A DNA stretch of 64,000 nucleotides from Escherichia coli (GCF_024223415.1 NZ_CP100500.1), one strand, 5' to 3'. Positions 45,001 through 51,000 are shown, counted from the stretch's first letter. Numbers: made by a program.

Positions 45001-48000
45001 CTTCTCGACCGCTTCAGTGCACTGGAATCGCGCCATCAGGCAGACAGACAGAAAGTCGCCACCCTGTCCACTGAGCTGGCAGAGCTGAAAAACAGACTGC
45101 GCGGACTGGACGCTGATCAGCAAAGTCGTTTTACGGCAACCGGCGGGCAGTCCAGACAACTGGCTGACTACTGACAGAAATAACCACAAGAGGTGATAAC
45201 CGATGAATCTGATCATGAGCGATGCCGCGCGGGCCGAGCTTTTTGCTTACCAGGCACAACAGGCGGAGATGAATAACATCACGATATCTGCGCTCTCCTC
45301 CCGCTTTTCGGTACAACCGGCAGTGCAGCAGAGATTTGAAAACGCATCAAAGGAAAGCCATGATTTTCTTCAGAAAGTCAACAGCATTGGTGTGACAGAG
45401 CAGAAAGGTGAAAAGGTACTCCTGGACACCACCGGGCCGGTTGCGCGCACGAACAGCAGTTATGACGGCACAAATCGTCGTAACCCGCTGAATGTGGTGG
45501 ACATGAAAGCGCGACGCTATGAGTGCGAGCAGGTGAACTACGACACCTTCATCTCCTACCCTCAGCTTGACATGTGGGCCGGACACCCTGACTTCCAGCT
45601 GCGTGTGAGTCGCCAGATTGCCAGACAGGTGGCACTTGATCGCATCATGACAGGTTTTAACGGTACGCACCATGCGGAAGTCTCGGATATAAAAAAACAC
45701 CCGCGACTTGAGGACGTCAATAAGGGGTGGCTGCAGGATATCAGGGACCAGGCCCCGCAACGCGTCATGAAAGACGTGATGCTGACTGCGCGCAATATGG
45801 ACAATTCGGTGGCATACACCGGCAGATACGCCAATCCCGATGCACTGATCCAGGATGCACGCTCATCCCTGCTTGACGAATGGCACAAGGACGCAGACGA
45901 CCTCGTTGTCATCATGGGGCGAAACCTCTTTAACTCCCTGCGCCTGCCGGTCCTGAACAGTATCAGCATGCAGAATCCGAATGCCGAACTGCTTGCCGGA
46001 CAGCTCATTGTGTCAACGCGGACCATTGGCGGCCTTGATGTGTACCTTGCGCCATTTTTCCCGGCTCAGTCAATACTCATCACCTCATTCAGCAACCTGT
46101 CGGTTTACTGGCAGAAGGGGTCCATGCGTCGTCTCATGAAGGATGAGCCCGAATACAACCGTATCGCCATCTATCAGTCCGTTAACGACTGCTATGTGGT
46201 TGAGGACCATGGTAAGTGCGCACTGATTGAGAATATCAGCTTTGCCGAATATGACCATGACGCGCCGGACTGGTACCGGGACGCCACAAAAGCACTGTCA
46301 GCGCAGGCTGAAGACAGGGATGCAGGGGAAGAGGAGGATTAACCATGCTGACACCGGCACAGGCTCATTTCCAGCGCGTGATGGCTTTACGGGCAGGAAC
46401 GGCAGCAGAAAACGAGGATATCGTGGCCCGCACGGCTCATGAGCAGGTCCTTCACCGTCTGCGCCTGGCACAGCAACGCATAAAGGGCGTCCAGGCAAAA
46501 GCGGCAAAGGCCGCGCTCAAGCGTGAAATGCTGCCGGGTTTTGCAGGCTGGATAGACGGCACGCTGGAAGCCGACGGCGGACAGCAGGATGAGGTGATAG
46601 CCACACTCATGGTGTGGGCCGTGGACTGTGGCGACCTGGCGCTTGCACTGCGCATCGGGGATTATGTGGTTCGCCACAACCTCACGATGCCTGACAACTT
46701 CGGGCGTACGGCAGCCACGGTACTGACCGAGGAAATCTGCAACCCTGTTCTGACACAGGCCGGAACGGATGCACACGCCGATTTGTCCGGCTACATCGAA
46801 CCGCTGGACACCCTCTGGCAAATTGTCGCGAACCGGGACATGCCCGATGAGGTCCGCGCCAAGCTGTGCAAGGCATGCGCCTTTGCCCGTCGTGGCCTGA
46901 CCGATGCCGACAGCATGGCGGTGAGTCTGAAGCTGTTCCGTGAGGCAATGCACCTTAACCCGAATGCGGGGGTAAAACGTGAGATTGCCACGCTTTCACG
47001 GGCCCTGAAAAAGGCCGGACAGGATGAAGCCGCTGCCGCACAGGAGCCTGCGGCACAGAAAGATACAACCAGAGAACAGACCACGACGCCGAAGGCGAAA
47101 GCGAAAGCGAAGGCGAAACGTGGTTAACGGCTGACCCCGTCAGAAGGCGGCGTGCCGGGCGTTCCGGTTACGGTTTTCCGTTCCCCTTACACCCGGCACC
47201 CACCGCTTTTTTTTCTGAAGGAGCGATTTATGAGCATGGTCGCAAGACCGGAAGCCGCCCCTGCGCGGGACGACATCACCGACACCGACGACGGCGACGC
47301 CACCATCACCGCCGGGGCATTCTGGCCGGAGATTGTGCTGCGGGAGCTGCGCCTTGCAGTACGCCTGCCGGGCCGCATCACCTCCACACGTCTGGCGCAC
47401 GTTGCCACGGGAGCCGTGGCTCACGTCACGCGGGAGCTGGAAGAGTGGCAGCAGGCGCAAATCGCCGCAGGATTCAGCACGCTGACAGACGTACCTGCCG
47501 CCACCATCAACGGTGAGAGCGTCAACGCCTGGCATTACCGGCACGCCGTCTACAGCGCCACCCGTGCCCTGATTCTGGAGCGCTGGCGGGATGTGGACAC
47601 CACCGACAAGGGGGACCGCAGGGCTGACGCACTGGATGAGCAGGTGGAGGACCTGTGGCGCGACGTGCGCTGGGCGATTTCCGATATTCTCGGCTTTCCC
47701 CGTCTTTTTGTGGAGCTTGTGTGATGAAAGTGAGGGCACTTCAGGGGGACACCGTGGATTTACTCTGTTTCCGGCACTACGGCACCACGCAGGGGGTGAC
47801 CGCACAGGTACTTGATGCCAATCCCGGGCTCTGCCGCCAGGTAATTCTGGAAGCGGGACAGGAGGTGGAGATGCCGGAGCCGGAAAGGAAACAGCAACGC
47901 GAAAAGGTAAAGCTATGGTGACGGGATTTTTTCAGCGCGTCAGTGACTGGATCACCTTCTGGGCGTCAGTGACGGCAACAACCATTGGTGTTATGACCAT

Positions 48001-51000
48001 CAGCGAAAAAATTGCGCTGGCCGGGCTGCTTCTGGGGTCACTTTCCGCCATCCATGCCTGGCGCCACCGCAGGCGTACGGAGCAGGCAATGAAGCGCCGC
48101 AATGACCTTATCGCCCGCATCCTGGCACGTTCAGAAAACCGCGAGCTTCACGACGGTGAGAGACGGGCACTGGACAGCGTGAGACAGGACGGAGAAGAGC
48201 GGTGAAGCTGCCGGTAAAACGTTATGCGGTGGCGGCCATTGTGGCGCTGGGCGTCTCCATGGCACCCGGTGAACTGAGAACCTCACGGGAAGCACAGATA
48301 AAAATCGCCACCCGGGAAGAGTGCCGGGCGACACCGTACCGTGATATTGCAGGAGTAATGACCGTGGGATGTGGTTCAACAGGGGGCGTGGAGAACCGGG
48401 TTTACGGAGAAAAGGAGGTGGCCCGCCGCTGGGTGAATGACCTGCGGCACGCGGAAAACTGTATCAACCAGAACTTCAGCGGTGCCGCCATGCCCCAGTC
48501 CGCCTTTGAGGCGATGACCGACGCGGCGTTCAACGTCGGCTGTACCGGCCTGATGTGGTACCGGGACAGGAGCGGCAACCGGCAGCGCACCACCATCTGG
48601 AAGCACGCACAGGCGCACCGCTGGGTGGCGATGTGCGGGAGACTGACCGATTTTGTCAACAGTGGCGGACGCCGCTCACAGGGGCTGGTTAACCGCCGGG
48701 AGGAGTTCAGACAGTGGTGTCTTCGCGACACGGGAGGCAGCACATGAGACCGGTTTACGCCGTGATTGTTGCCCTCATGGTGACCGCCCTGACGGCAGTG
48801 GCCATGTGGCAGTCATACCGGCTGGGGCGTGCCGGTGAGGCACGTGACGCCGCAGAGCAGCAGCTGGGCGAATACAGCCGTGCGCTGCGTGAATCCTCCG
48901 CCGTTATCAGCGATGCCTCCGCCGTACTGCATGAGGTGATGACGCAGCGACAGCAAAGGGCACAGGAAGGAGAAGTCAGACGTGAACAGCTTCGCGAAAT
49001 TACTGCGACGGATGAGTGCGCCCGCGCTCTTCCTGACCACCGTTTTACTGACCGGCTGCGCGAACACACGGAACGCGCCACTGCCCGCGCCCTCCTTCCG
49101 GTTCATTCCGGCGGGACTGACGACGGGAACACGGCCCCCGCCCTTCCCTGAACACCCCACCTGGGGAAATATCGGGATATGGAGCGACAGCCTCCTGGAT
49201 GCACTGGAAACCTGCAACGCAGACAAACAGGCCATTGAGGCGCTGGAGCGCCGGAGACTCAACCGACAGAACGGAGGGGGACATGCTGAAAAGTAAATCC
49301 CTGAGCACACACATGAGTACAGCGTGCCGGTGGTGCAGGGCCAACCCGGAAAAGTTCACCGTGTTCATTGAACGTGGCGGGATAGAGACCACCGGCGAGA
49401 CGCCGACGTTCGTGTACAACTACCGGCTCGTGATGTTCGTCATGGACTACACGGGCGACCTGGACGACCTGACGCTGCCGCTGATTGTCTGGCTGGCAGA
49501 GAACCAGCCGCAGTTGCTGCTTAATCCTGAGCGCAACGGCGATATTCAGTTCACGGCGGCCATTAACGACGACGACAGTGCGGACGTGCTTTTTGAGGTG
49601 CCGCTGCGCGAGCGCGTGCGCGTCACCCGCAGGGATGACGGCACCCTCACAACGGAACATCTGCCGGAGCCGAAATCGCGCATCCCGCAGGACGGCGACT
49701 GGTCGCACATTCTGGAGGATGTGACGTGGGAGGTGACCGGTGACTGACAGGGCTTTCACTGAACTGGACCGCACAATGCGGACCATCAGCAGCGGACTTT
49801 CCCCGCAGGCACTGAGCCGCATTGCCGGACAGCTTGCCAGAGAGCTTCGCCGCAGCCAGCAACAGCGTATGCGCGCACAGAAAGCGCCGGACGGTACACA
49901 GTGGGAGCCGCGCAGACGGCGCATCAGCCGCCTGCAGCAGCGTATCCGCTTCATCCGGAACAACGAAACCCGCACGCTGAAAAACTGGCATCACGACGTG
50001 AGCAGACACGGACGCACCATCACCGGCTGGGATGAGGATAAGGGAGGCCTGCGCACCTTCTACCGGGAGGATATCACCCGTTATCTTGAAATCAGCACCC
50101 GGCGCATCAGCCGCAACGCCACAAAGACCGTACCGATGTTTGCGAAGCTGCGCACGGCACGCTACCTGAAAGCCAGAGGCGATGCGGGCGGTCTGACCGT
50201 CGGTTATGACGGCGTGGCGGCACGCATTGCCCGCGTTCACCAGTTCGGGGAGCGCGACCGGGTGGCCGCAGGGGTGTATACGGATTATCCGGCCCGTGAA
50301 CTTCTTGGAATAACACCGGCAGATGAACGGCTGATTGCCGACAGGCTACTGAACCGCATTGCGGGAGAAATATCATCATGAACGCGGAGCTTATGCGCCT
50401 TATCAGCAACATTATCAGAACCGGCGTGATTTTCGACGTGAACCCGCAGACCTGGGAGGTCCGGGTGCGCAGTGGCGGACTGGAGACAGGGTGGCTTCGC
50501 TGGAGCACCGCGCGGGCGGGCGCGTTCAGTGTCTGGGTGCCGCCAGCCACCGGTGAACAGGTGGCGTTCGTCTGTATCGGTGGTAATCCCGAAACCGCGA
50601 TAATCATCGGCAGCCTCTGGAGCGATGATATCCCGGCACCGGGCAGCACACTGAAGGAAATCATCATGACAGCACCGGACGGTGCGGTATTCCGCTACGA
50701 TGCAGACGCCGGTGCACTGGAGGTTAAGGGGATTAAAACAGCCAGCATTCAGGCCGACACGCGCATCACCCTGGACACGCCGGAGGTGGTGTGTACCCGC
50801 AAACTTATCACCGCCACCCTGGAGGTGCAGAACGGCGGCGAGATGCGCGGCAGCATATCCCACAGCGGCGGCAGCCTGACATCCAACGGTATCACCGTTC
50901 ATACGCACACCCACGGTGGCGTCAGGACGGGCCCGGGCACCACGGGAGGCCCGCAATGACCGCTGTTTACAGGGGGATGAACCCGCAGGGAACCGGCACG

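What the first reader, a model, noticed from the sequence alone, without database searches (positions are those of the whole stretch)
47915..48747. Lysis cassette pairs a two-TM pinholin-like holin with a SAR-type endolysin
The endolysin has a weakly hydrophobic Gly/Ala-rich N-terminal helix typical of signal-anchor-release lysozymes and initiates at GTG; the preceding holin has two TM segments. This is a coherent pinholin/SAR pair, and the cassette lacks a separate lysA-like gene.
Basis: partly seen in the sequence, partly recalled or inferred. Interest (0 to 1): 0.25.

Follow-up and report, generated by a model that had tools for sequence, protein, structure and literature searches.

The report
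P2-like prophage holin and SAR-endolysin cassette
This is an ordinary but intact phage lysis cassette in a P2-like E. coli prophage: a small two-helix holin, a membrane-tethered ("SAR") lysozyme related to phage P1 Lyz, and two spanins. The kind is already described, and the one unusual detail is how the lysozyme's cysteines are arranged.

Summary
ORF 47915-48205 encodes a 96-aa holin with two transmembrane domains. ORF 48202-48747 encodes a 181-aa GH24 lysozyme that starts at GTG and has a short, Ala/Gly-rich N-terminal hydrophobic helix.

The GTG start is real. Relatives have ATG at the same position, the extension is under purifying selection, and GGAG lies 7 nt upstream. RefSeq's ATG start at 48259 is not conserved.

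The lysozyme is 45% identical to P1 Lyz, the prototype SAR endolysin, and the match includes the membrane helix. It lacks P1's thiol switch: there is no Cys in the SAR helix, and Asp replaces the catalytic Cys. It has gained Cys57, and this triple change arose twice independently.

The holin is a remote homologue of the Haemophilus phage HP1 holin. It is not related to the two proven pinholins, S21 68 and P1 LydD, so "pinholin" is a plausible but untested label. In 52 of 52 informative loci this holin precedes a lysozyme of this type.

Such cassettes are already annotated in P2-like phages. This is a new member of a known kind, of low interest.

The parts
47724..47921 (+). gpX (tail protein X), the upstream neighbour. 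Its stop overlaps the holin start (ATGGTGA).
   Evidence: Pfam Phage_tail_X 1.7e-20; ORF list.
47915..48205 (+). Class II holin, 96 aa, remote member of the HP1-holin family.
   Evidence: PHROG 1350 holin 7e-23. Pfam PF16080 scores 22.5 bits, below the gathering score of 28.8, but all 9 family members hit it. hhalign against HP1 Hol: probability 76%, E 2.3e-5.
47948..48004 (+). Holin TMD1 (W12-S30, WITFWASVTATTIGVMTIS). 53% Gly/Ala/Ser/Thr; G25 is invariant.
   Evidence: Hydropathy; alignment A2.
48011..48061 (+). Holin TMD2 (I33-W49, IALAGLLLGSLSAIHAW), with an invariant A34/A36/G37xxxG41 small-residue motif.
48191..48194 (+). Shine-Dalgarno GGAG, 7 nt upstream of the lysozyme GTG.
   Evidence: Sequence; upstream contexts of relatives.
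48202..48747 (+). SAR-type endolysin, 181 aa, GH24 lysozyme of the P1 Lyz clade. GTG start.
   Evidence: Pfam PF00959 1.4e-21; 1XJT 7e-36; 45% identity to P1 Lyz; AlphaFold model against 1XJT TM 0.85.
48223..48270 (+). Predicted SAR (signal-arrest-release) helix Y8-G23. It is preceded by K2, K6 and R7 and followed by E24. P22 is invariant.
   Evidence: The AlphaFold model has a helix at residues 10-20.
48316..48363 (+). Catalytic motif E39-X8-D48-X5-T54. C41 (48322-48324) is equivalent to P1 C44. D48 replaces the P1 catalytic Cys51.
   Evidence: Alignments.
48370..48372 (+). Cys57, a cysteine specific to the lysozymes that lack a SAR-helix Cys.
   Evidence: Covariation tables and tree.
48744..49151 (+). 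i-spanin (Rz/LysB-like), 135 aa, with an N-terminal TMD. Its ATG overlaps the lysozyme stop (ATGA).
   Evidence: PHROG 214 Rz-like spanin 5.4e-27; uncharged stretch at residues 3-25.
48982..49296 (+). o-spanin (Rz1/LysC-like), +1 frame, overlapping the end of the i-spanin gene. GTG start with AAGGAG 9 nt upstream. Lipobox LLTG|C26 (Cys codon 49057-49059).
   Evidence: Pfam LysC PF23793 at 50.4 bits, above the gathering score of 27; PHROG 3001/456; sequence.
49283..49747 (+). gpR tail completion protein, the downstream neighbour. It marks the end of the lysis cassette.
   Evidence: Pfam P2_Phage_GpR 5.5e-38.

Best explanation
**What it is.** This is the four-gene lysis cassette of a P2-like (Peduoviridae) prophage, embedded in the late operon between tail gene X and tail genes R/S.

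**How it most likely works.**
1. The lysozyme is translated from GTG 48202, coupled to the holin stop.
2. It is exported by the Sec system and stays tethered to the inner membrane by its uncleaved, weakly hydrophobic N-terminal helix, with the muramidase domain held inactive in the periplasm.
3. The two-TMD holin accumulates in the membrane and, at a programmed time, triggers and collapses the proton-motive force.
4. The SAR helix then leaves the bilayer, the enzyme refolds into the conformation seen in active P1 Lyz, and it degrades the murein.
5. The i-spanin/o-spanin complex then disrupts the outer membrane.

**How it differs from P1 Lyz.** The enzyme cannot use thiol-disulfide isomerisation. 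It has no Cys in the SAR helix and a canonical Asp48 in place of the catalytic Cys. Control must therefore be topological and conformational, as in R21. Its six periplasmic cysteines, including the lineage-specific C57, are probably all disulfide-bonded, with C41-C57 replacing the C13-C44 bond of active P1 Lyz.

**Hole size.** Whether the holin makes small (pinholin) or large holes is undecided. Because the enzyme is already periplasmic, only depolarisation is needed.

**Shown versus inferred.**
- Shown: gene content, homologies, start codon, conservation and covariation.
- Inferred: export, tethering, release, disulfide pairing and hole size.
For: **Gene order and identities**
- Established.
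- Synteny X-holin-lysozyme-Rz-R-S is conserved in relatives.

**Start codon and N-terminal extension**
- ATG in relatives, 8 synonymous against 2 non-synonymous differences, and an SD sequence.
- M20 is not conserved.

**Relationship to P1 Lyz**
- 45% identity, E 7e-41, aligned from residue 9 onwards.
- phmmer against 1XJT aligns from residue 12.
- The AlphaFold model (pLDDT 81.9) matches active full-length Lyz 1XJT at TM 0.85, against 0.58 for the inactive form 1XJU.

**SAR-like composition**
- 16 uncharged residues, 50% Gly/Ala/Ser/Thr, with a positive simple summed Hessa-scale score (+3.6). The P1 and R21 SAR helices score similarly, whereas LepB TM1 scores -1.1.
- The published criteria for a SAR domain are given in PMC9239132.

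**Signs of export**
- Four cysteines in the catalytic domain are conserved in 82-83 of 89 homologues. This fits a periplasmic enzyme.

**Pairing with the holin**
- The holin family is always followed by this lysozyme type, in 52 of 52 informative IMG/VR loci.
- The HP1 hol-lys module is homologous to both genes.

**Precedent**
- P2-like coliphage Midge is annotated with a class II holin, a SAR endolysin and spanins (PMC12697156).
Against: - No experiment has been done on this protein or on any member of this holin family.
- The hydrophobic segment is short: 16 uncharged residues, against 24 in P1 Lyz and R21. With S-M-A at positions -3 to -1 it looks much like a classical Sec signal peptide. 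Only the invariant Pro at +1 argues against cleavage, and that rests on established knowledge that Pro at +1 blocks signal peptidase I.
- SignalP and TMHMM were not available.
- The C41-C57 disulfide is inferred from covariation and from Cys parity. No model coordinates could be inspected.
- The holin has no dual-start motif and no recognisable antiholin, so how lysis timing is regulated is unknown.
Confidence: 0.78

Rival explanations
1. The holin is a canonical, large-hole holin rather than a pinholin. The SAR endolysin is released simply because any holin triggering depolarises the membrane.
For: - There is no homology to S21 68 or P1 LydD, and no member hits PF04971.
- TMD1 has a Kyte-Doolittle mean of 1.21, within the range of lambda S105 TMDs (1.1-1.6) and well above S21 TMD1 at 0.52.
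- P1 Lyz and R21 both function with canonical holins (PMC9025707).
Against: - The family is never seen with a cytoplasmic endolysin: 52 of 52 loci have a SAR-type lysozyme.
- It has two TMDs with an invariant GxxxG-type motif in TMD2.
- Published generalisations say that genes for SAR endolysins adjoin pinholin genes (PMC9239132, PMC9025707).
Confidence: 0.4
2. The N-terminal segment is a cleavable Sec signal peptide. The lysozyme is then secreted as a soluble periplasmic enzyme, kept in check by the energised membrane or by other means, as proposed for some signal-peptide endolysins of Gram-positive phages.
For: - The segment has n-h-c architecture: MKLPVKR, then an 11-residue hydrophobic core, then S19-M20-A21, which satisfies the -3/-1 rule.
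- Its hydropathy is similar to the MBP and OmpA signal peptides.
Against: - Pro22 at +1 is invariant in all 26 aligned homologues, and Pro at +1 blocks signal peptidase I (established knowledge).
- Other members of the family carry L-W-P at this site, which is not a signal-peptidase site.
- The segment aligns with the uncleaved SAR helix of P1 Lyz.
- In the AlphaFold model the helix is part of the fold that superposes on the 1XJT structure.
Confidence: 0.07
3. Translation starts at ATG 48259, as in the RefSeq annotation. This gives a 162-aa cytoplasmic endolysin that needs a large-hole holin.
For: - NCBI PGAP calls this start in the 99.9%-identical E. coli genome.
- ATG is a stronger initiator than GTG.
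Against: - M20 is Leu or Ile in relatives.
- There is no SD sequence before 48259, whereas GGAG precedes the GTG.
- Relatives have ATG at the upstream position.
- The synonymous-to-non-synonymous pattern shows that codons 2-23 are translated.
- A 53-nt untranslated gap would otherwise interrupt an operon whose genes otherwise overlap.
Confidence: 0.04
4. The N-terminal helix is a stable signal anchor that needs a dedicated release factor or proteolysis. The comparison is phage Mu, whose SAR endolysin depends on the releasin gp25.
For: Phage Mu shows that not all SAR endolysins are released by holin triggering (PMC9239132).
Against: - There is no additional small membrane-protein gene in the cassette.
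- The helix is short, with only 16 uncharged residues, and is rich in Ala and Gly. That disfavours stable insertion.
Confidence: 0.06

Closest known systems
Phage P1 Lyz (prototype SAR endolysin; PDB 1XJT/1XJU) and its adjacent pinholin LydD
   Same: - 45% identity over 169 residues, including the N-terminal membrane helix.
- Best structural match, TM 0.85 to active Lyz.
- The same conserved cysteines, C41 (P1 C44), C87, C114, C145 and C173.
- It is adjacent to a small two-TMD protein with a basic C-terminus.
   Different: - There is no Cys in the SAR helix: Tyr8 occupies the column that holds the SAR Cys in 60 of 89 homologues.
- Asp48 replaces the catalytic Cys51 of P1, and a new Cys57 is present. 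P1's disulfide-isomerisation activation is therefore impossible.
- The holin lies upstream rather than downstream, and it is not homologous to LydD.
- The uncharged segment is shorter (16 residues against 24).
Haemophilus phage HP1 hol-lys module (Peduoviridae, Hpunavirus; Pfam PF16080 HP1 holin family)
   Same: - The gene order is holin, lysozyme, Rz-like spanin.
- The holin is remotely homologous: hhalign probability 76%, E 2.3e-5 over both TMDs.
- The lysozyme is 40% identical.
   Different: - HP1 Lys has Cys at the catalytic position that P1 Lyz fills with Cys51 (NPYKCPA).
- HP1 Hol is 78 aa and lacks the long charged tail.
- In HP1 the module sits after the tail sheath and tube genes, not between X and R.
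- The window holin scores below Pfam's gathering score.
Phage 21 S21 68 pinholin and R21 SAR endolysin (PDB 3HDE)
   Same: - The functional architecture matches: a two-TMD class II holin directly upstream of a GH24 lysozyme with an N-terminal Gly/Ala-rich helix lacking Cys.
- The catalytic triad is the canonical E-X8-D-X5-T.
- By inference, regulation is purely topological and conformational.
   Different: - The lysozyme is only 26% identical to R21/RrrD; the model matches at TM 0.62.
- The holin is not homologous.
- There is no dual-start antiholin.
- TMD1 is much more hydrophobic than S21 TMD1.
Phage P2 lysis region Y-K-lysA-lysB-lysC
   Same: - It occupies the same position in the late operon, between X and R.
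- The spanin architecture is the same overlapped type, with a LysC-family o-spanin.
   Different: - The holin and endolysin are unrelated to P2 Y (PF04550) and K.
- There is no lysA.
- The holin-endolysin module has been exchanged within a conserved backbone.
Annotated P2-like phages with the same cassette type (Enterobacter phage phiT5282H, Klebsiella phage ST16-OXA48phi5.4, Escherichia phage Midge, Klebsiella KP12)
   Same: - phiT5282H has holin, endolysin and Rz-like spanin at the same locus, with the holin 51% and the lysozyme 69% identical.
- Midge is published as having a class II holin, a SAR endolysin and spanins.
- In KP12, a P1-Lyz-like SAR endolysin sits in a P2-type cassette.
   Different: - phiT5282H has the P1-type Cys pattern.
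- None of these has been tested experimentally for SAR or pinholin behaviour.

Membership tests
SAR endolysin (functional class) | Muramidase domain with catalytic E-X8-D/C-X5-T | tested here: met
   E39, D48 and T54 are present. E39 and T54 are invariant in 26 homologues. Pfam PF00959.
SAR endolysin (functional class) | N-terminal weakly hydrophobic TMD rich in Gly/Ala/Ser/Thr after a basic N-terminus | tested here: met
   K2, K6 and R7, then Y8-G23. 8 of the 16 residues are Gly/Ala/Ser. The simple summed Hessa-scale score is +3.6, against -1.1 for LepB TM1. The segment is shorter than in P1 or R21.
SAR endolysin (functional class) | Signal sequence not cleaved by signal peptidase I | tested here: inconclusive
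   Pro22 is invariant at +1 of the S-x-A site, and other family members have L-W-P. No SignalP run or experiment was available.
SAR endolysin (functional class) | Sec-dependent export, membrane tethering, release on depolarisation or by a pinholin, holin-independent slow lysis | not testable with these tools
   This needs expression and fractionation experiments (criteria in PMC9239132).
P1 Lyz-type (disulfide-isomerisation) SAR endolysin | Activating Cys in the SAR helix | tested here: not met
   The window protein has Tyr8 in that column, and there is no Cys in residues 1-26.
P1 Lyz-type (disulfide-isomerisation) SAR endolysin | Catalytic Cys (P1 C51) that can be blocked by the C44 equivalent | tested here: not met
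   Position 48 is Asp. The C44 equivalent (C41) is retained.
P1 Lyz clade (sequence and structure family) | Significant full-length similarity to P1 Lyz | tested here: met
   E 7e-41 and 45% identity. TM 0.85 to 1XJT. In the NJ tree the window group nests inside P1-type sequences.
Pinholin, S21 68 family (Pfam PF04971) | Sequence homology to S21 68 | tested here: not met
   hhalign probability 1.3%. None of 9 members hits PF04971 at E<=1, while S21 itself scores 122 bits.
Pinholin (functional class) | Two TMDs, N-in/C-in, with a basic cytoplasmic C-terminus | tested here: met
   Hydropathy shows two uncharged stretches of 19 and 17 residues, a 3-residue loop, and a C-terminus beginning RHRRR. 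The topology itself is inferred.
Pinholin (functional class) | TMD1 weakly hydrophobic and able to leave the membrane | tested here: inconclusive
   TMD1 is 53% Gly/Ala/Ser/Thr, but its Kyte-Doolittle mean is 1.21, against 0.52 for S21 TMD1.
Pinholin (functional class) | Small holes: cannot support a cytoplasmic endolysin but supports a SAR endolysin | not testable with these tools
   This is a genetic test, as done for LydD (PMC9025707). Only co-occurrence with SAR-type lysozymes was measured (52 of 52).
HP1 holin family (Pfam PF16080) | Score above the Pfam gathering threshold | tested here: not met
   The score is 22.5 bits, below the gathering score of 28.8. All 9 family members hit the model as their best match, and hhalign against HP1 Hol gives probability 76%, E 2.3e-5. 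This makes it a remote relative, not a Pfam-defined member.
Two-component overlapped spanin (P2 LysB/LysC type) | i-spanin with an N-terminal TMD, and an o-spanin lipoprotein encoded in the +1 frame overlapping the end of the i-spanin gene | tested here: met
   PHROG 214 at 5.4e-27, and Pfam LysC at 50.4 bits (gathering score 27). Lipobox LLTGC. The o-spanin ORF (48982-49296) extends beyond the i-spanin stop at 49151.
P2 Y/K/LysA lysis module | Homology to P2 Y and K, and presence of lysA | tested here: not met
   BLASTP finds no alignment to Y or K. There is no ORF between the lysozyme and the Rz-like gene.

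The most novel reading that the evidence does not exclude
The window enzyme may represent an undescribed regulatory subclass within the P1-Lyz clade of SAR endolysins.

- The thiol-isomerisation switch, made of a SAR-helix Cys and a catalytic Cys, was dismantled by three coordinated substitutions: SAR Cys to Tyr, Cys48 to Asp, and Ile57 to Cys.
- This leaves an even number (6) of periplasmic cysteines, with a new C41-C57 disulfide.
- The same end state arose independently in a distant lineage (P0084 and P0102). That suggests a recurrent evolutionary route from covalent control to purely conformational control of a lytic enzyme.
Probability: 0.3. Interest if true: 0.4.

Novelty: new member of a known kind. 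Interest (0 to 1): 0.2.

Why it matters
- **Annotation.** RefSeq truncates the lysozyme by 19 residues, which removes its membrane helix. It labels the holin 'phage tail protein' and starts the o-spanin after its lipobox. Anyone mining such prophages for enzybiotics or lysis timing would misread the system.
- **Biology.** The cassette illustrates module exchange inside a conserved P2 late operon.
- **Evolution of control.** The cassette offers a natural pair of closely related SAR endolysins, 65-69% identical, one with and one without the P1 thiol switch, both partnered with the same holin family. That would be a convenient system for asking what the disulfide switch adds to lysis control.
- **Overall.** None of this changes current understanding of phage lysis.

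Tried and rejected
**Searches that found nothing**
- Megablast of the cassette against 50,697 phage records found nothing. Protein-level searches were needed.
- NCBIfam gave no useful family for the holin or the spanins.

**Comparisons that were negative**
- hhalign of the holin family against S21 68 and P1 LydD was negative.
- BLASTP against P2 Y and K was negative.

- I tried to read Kuty et al. 2010 (disulfide caging, Lyz103) by DOI and by a guessed PMC id. It is not held.
- My statements about the Lyz103 subclass and about the P1 C13/C44/C51 chemistry therefore rest on my own knowledge of Xu et al. 2005 and Kuty et al. 2010.

**Ideas considered and dropped**
- A dual-start antiholin: rejected, because there is no second Met or Lys near the N-terminus, either here or in relatives.
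- Testing C41-C57 proximity in the AlphaFold model: not possible, because coordinates are not exposed. A register argument based on T4 lysozyme was ambiguous, so I dropped it.
- Four IMG/VR loci at first appeared to combine a SAR-helix Cys with C57. This was an artefact of my script choosing an upstream ATG; the Cys lies in a spurious 15-residue extension.

Full report
**Observation**

- The first runs from ATG 47915 to TGA 48205 and encodes 96 aa.
- The second runs from GTG 48202 to TGA 48747 and encodes 181 aa.

The DNA here is about 60% G+C and is full of spurious ORFs on all frames, so homology is what matters.
- The first ORF hits PHROG 1350 'holin' at 7e-23.
- The second hits Pfam Phage_lysozyme at 1.4e-21.
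- In the PDB, the second ORF's best match is phage P1 Lyz (1XJT) at 7e-36, with the alignment starting at residue 12.

**Context**

The genes lie in the late operon of a P2-like prophage. The order is gpM, gpL, gpX, holin, lysozyme, Rz-like i-spanin (48744-49151), LysC/Rz1-like o-spanin (48982-49296, lipobox LLTG|C), gpR, gpS, gpV.
- The prophage lies next to the host glutaminase and permease genes, and its integrase is at 29759-30802.
- Nearly identical DNA (95% or more) occurs in 25 of 5,426 complete E. coli genomes.
- No phage record matches at the nucleotide level.
- The closest sequenced phages are Enterobacter phage phiT5282H and Klebsiella prophages, with lysozymes 61-69% identical.
- Synteny X-holin-lysozyme-Rz-R-S is conserved in them and in metagenomic relatives.

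**Start codon**

RefSeq's PGAP pipeline starts the lysozyme at ATG 48259 (Met20) in a 99.9%-identical genome. That call deletes the hydrophobic helix. The upstream GTG is the better call, for five reasons.
- Four diverged relatives have ATG at the aligned position.
- Among 53 IMG/VR loci, only the two that are about 99% identical to the window use GTG. The rest use ATG.
- Codons 2-23 differ from the 79%-identical relative by 8 synonymous and 2 non-synonymous codon changes.
- GGAG lies 7 nt upstream of the GTG, while nothing SD-like precedes 48259.
- Met20 is Leu or Ile in relatives.

The GTG overlaps the holin stop (GTGA), which implies translational coupling.

**The lysozyme**

It is 45% identical to P1 Lyz (E 7e-41), and the alignment runs through the membrane helix.
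- An AlphaFold model built from 26 homologues has a mean pLDDT of 81.9 and an N-terminal helix at residues 10-20.
- It superposes on the active, full-length form of Lyz (1XJT) at TM 0.85 over 177 columns.
- It matches the inactive form (1XJU) at TM 0.58 and R21 at TM 0.62.
- The catalytic motif is the canonical E39-X8-D48-X5-T54.

The N-terminus is MKLPVKR followed by YAVAAIVALGVSMAPG.
- That is 16 uncharged residues, half of them Ala, Gly or Ser.
- The Kyte-Doolittle mean is 1.71, and the simple summed Hessa-scale score is +3.6. The SAR helices of P1 Lyz and R21 behave similarly, whereas a true anchor, LepB TM1, scores -1.1.
- This fits the published description of a SAR domain (PMC9239132).

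The segment is shorter than in P1 or R21 (24 residues), and on its face it resembles a classical signal peptide with an S-M-A site. Against cleavage, Pro22, which sits at +1 of that site, is invariant in all 26 aligned homologues. More distant family members have L-W-P there instead. That Pro at +1 blocks signal peptidase I is established knowledge and was not tested here.

Four further cysteines (C87, C114, C145, C173) are conserved in 82-83 of 89 homologues. This suits an exported enzyme.

**A difference from P1 Lyz**

As I recall from Xu et al. 2005, P1 Lyz is held inactive by a Cys44-Cys51 disulfide that blocks the catalytic Cys51. It is activated when Cys13 of the released SAR helix attacks that bond. 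This paper was not retrievable here.

The window protein keeps the Cys44 equivalent (C41). It has Tyr where relatives have the SAR Cys, Asp at the Cys51 position, and a new Cys57.

| Class among 78 homologues with E39 and C41 | Number of clusters |
|---|---|
| SAR Cys present, residue 57 is I/V/M/L/A (48 with Cys48, 11 with Asp48) | 59 |
| No SAR Cys, Asp48, Cys57 | 18 |
| No SAR Cys, Asp48, residue 57 is Val (N-terminus doubtful) | 1 |

An NJ tree was built on the catalytic domain with the relevant positions removed.
- The window group is monophyletic and nested inside P1-type sequences.
- A second 'no SAR Cys / Asp / Cys57' pair (P0084 and P0102) lies in a different part of the tree. These two are 31-35% identical to the window protein.

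P1-type proteins have 7 cysteines, an odd number, so one thiol is always free. The window type has 6.

I infer that C41-C57 is a constitutive disulfide and that this enzyme is controlled only by topology and conformation, as in R21. This is an inference. The pairing could not be checked because model coordinates are not exposed.

**The holin**

Hydropathy shows two uncharged stretches, W12-S30 and I33-W49.
- They are joined by an invariant loop, S-E-K.
- They are followed by a 47-residue highly charged tail with a conserved RRN(D/E)LIA motif.
- TMD2 carries the invariant residues A34, A36, G37 and G41.

The holin's family relationships are as follows.
- All nine family members hit the Pfam HP1-holin model PF16080 as their best match, but below its threshold (22.5 bits against 28.8).
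- A profile comparison with the HP1 holin itself gives probability 76% and E 2.3e-5 over both TMDs.
- The HP1 lysozyme next to that holin is 40% identical to the window lysozyme.
- The holin-lysozyme pair is therefore an HP1-type module.
- It is unrelated to P2's own Y holin (PF04550) and K endolysin. The module has been swapped into a P2-type backbone. The spanins remain of the P2 LysB/LysC overlapped type, and lysA is absent (for P2).

**Is the holin a pinholin?**

Points in favour:
- It has class II topology.
- Half of TMD1 is Thr, Ser, Ala or Gly.
- TMD2 has a GxxxG-type motif.
- In all 52 informative IMG/VR loci carrying this holin family, the next gene is a P1-clade lysozyme with an N-terminal hydrophobic helix. 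Of these, 25 are window-type and 27 are P1-type.
- The literature generalises that SAR endolysin genes adjoin pinholin genes (PMC9239132, PMC9025707).

Points against, or neutral:
- There is no detectable homology to either experimentally proven pinholin, S21 68 or P1 LydD. The S21 sequence I used was verified as 100% identical to phage 21.
- TMD1 is much more hydrophobic than the membrane-exiting TMD1 of S21 (Kyte-Doolittle 1.21 against 0.52).
- SAR endolysins work with canonical holins too.
- There is no dual-start antiholin.

I rate pinholin function at about even odds. The defining test is genetic: a pinholin cannot support a cytoplasmic endolysin.

**Novelty and verdict**

Cassettes of this kind in P2-like phages are already annotated and published.
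- phiT5282H is annotated with holin, endolysin and Rz-like spanin.
- Escherichia phage Midge is described as having a class II holin, a signal-arrest-release endolysin and inner and outer spanins (PMC12697156).
- Klebsiella KP12 has a P1-Lyz-like SAR endolysin in a P2-type cassette (PMC9902359).

The finding is real and correctly located. The SAR reading is well supported in silico, and the pinholin label is unproven. The whole is a new member of a known kind.

Two by-products are modestly useful:
- corrections to the RefSeq annotation;
- the observation that the P1 thiol switch has been replaced, twice independently, by an Asp plus a new cysteine.

Noticed in passing
window 48202-48259, 47915-48205, 49105-49296 (compare L001, NZ_CM148325.1): RefSeq/PGAP annotation of the 99.9%-identical E. 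coli prophage has three problems. It starts the lysozyme at Met20, which removes the membrane helix. It names the holin 'phage tail protein'. It starts lysC at a position equivalent to 49105, downstream of the lipobox Cys. The mislabel 'tail protein' also appears for the holin in Klebsiella phage ST16-OXA48phi5.4.
   Followed up: yes
window 48223-48372; homologues P0001-P0135: There is strict three-way covariation in P1-clade lysozymes. A SAR-helix Cys goes with a non-Cys residue at 57, and it occurs with either Cys48 or Asp48. Absence of a SAR Cys goes with Asp48 and Cys57. A third class (SAR Cys, C41, Asp48; 11 clusters) also exists, and six sequences have Cys at position 44.
   Followed up: partly
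L007 795-1049 and L008 866-1159: In the distant, low-GC 'Cys57-type' lysozyme loci, an 84-aa or 97-aa protein that looks by eye like a two-TMD membrane protein follows the lysozyme. This is the P1 lyz-lydD order, rather than the holin preceding. Neither protein has a Pfam hit.
   Followed up: partly
window 48062-48202 (holin residues 50-96): The holin has an unusually long (47-residue) charged cytoplasmic tail. R62, N63, L65, I66 and L70 are invariant across the family. Its extreme C-terminus differs from relatives by a frame change just before the lysozyme start. Its function is unknown; it may be a timing or regulatory domain.
   Followed up: no
window 1342-26914, minus strand: There is a giant 6,925-aa ORF (4679-25456) with a BapA prefix domain, many bacterial Ig-like repeats, and FG-GAP and RTX repeats at the C-terminus. 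It is flanked by an outer-membrane efflux protein (25559-26914), an ABC transporter (2514-4655) and a HlyD-type protein (1342-2517). This is a type I-secreted giant adhesin locus with about 60% G+C, against about 50% in the window's flanking segments (1-2000, 26001-30000 and 62001-64000).
   Followed up: partly
window 34757-34954, plus strand: Rfam finds isrK (34757-34831, 59.8 bits) and C4 antisense RNA (34867-34954, 79.2 bits) side by side in the early region of the prophage. They lie next to an HTH protein gene and upstream of the gpA replication gene. This looks like a P1/P7-style antisense immunity element in a P2-like prophage.
   Followed up: no
window 55960-63099: The tail tape-measure gene (55960-59517) and the sheath gene (60563-61993) lie on the minus strand. 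This is opposite to the V-W-J-I-H-G block. A gpD-like ORF lies on the plus strand (61972-63099). The tail module is therefore arranged differently from P2, or the region is rearranged or composite.
   Followed up: no
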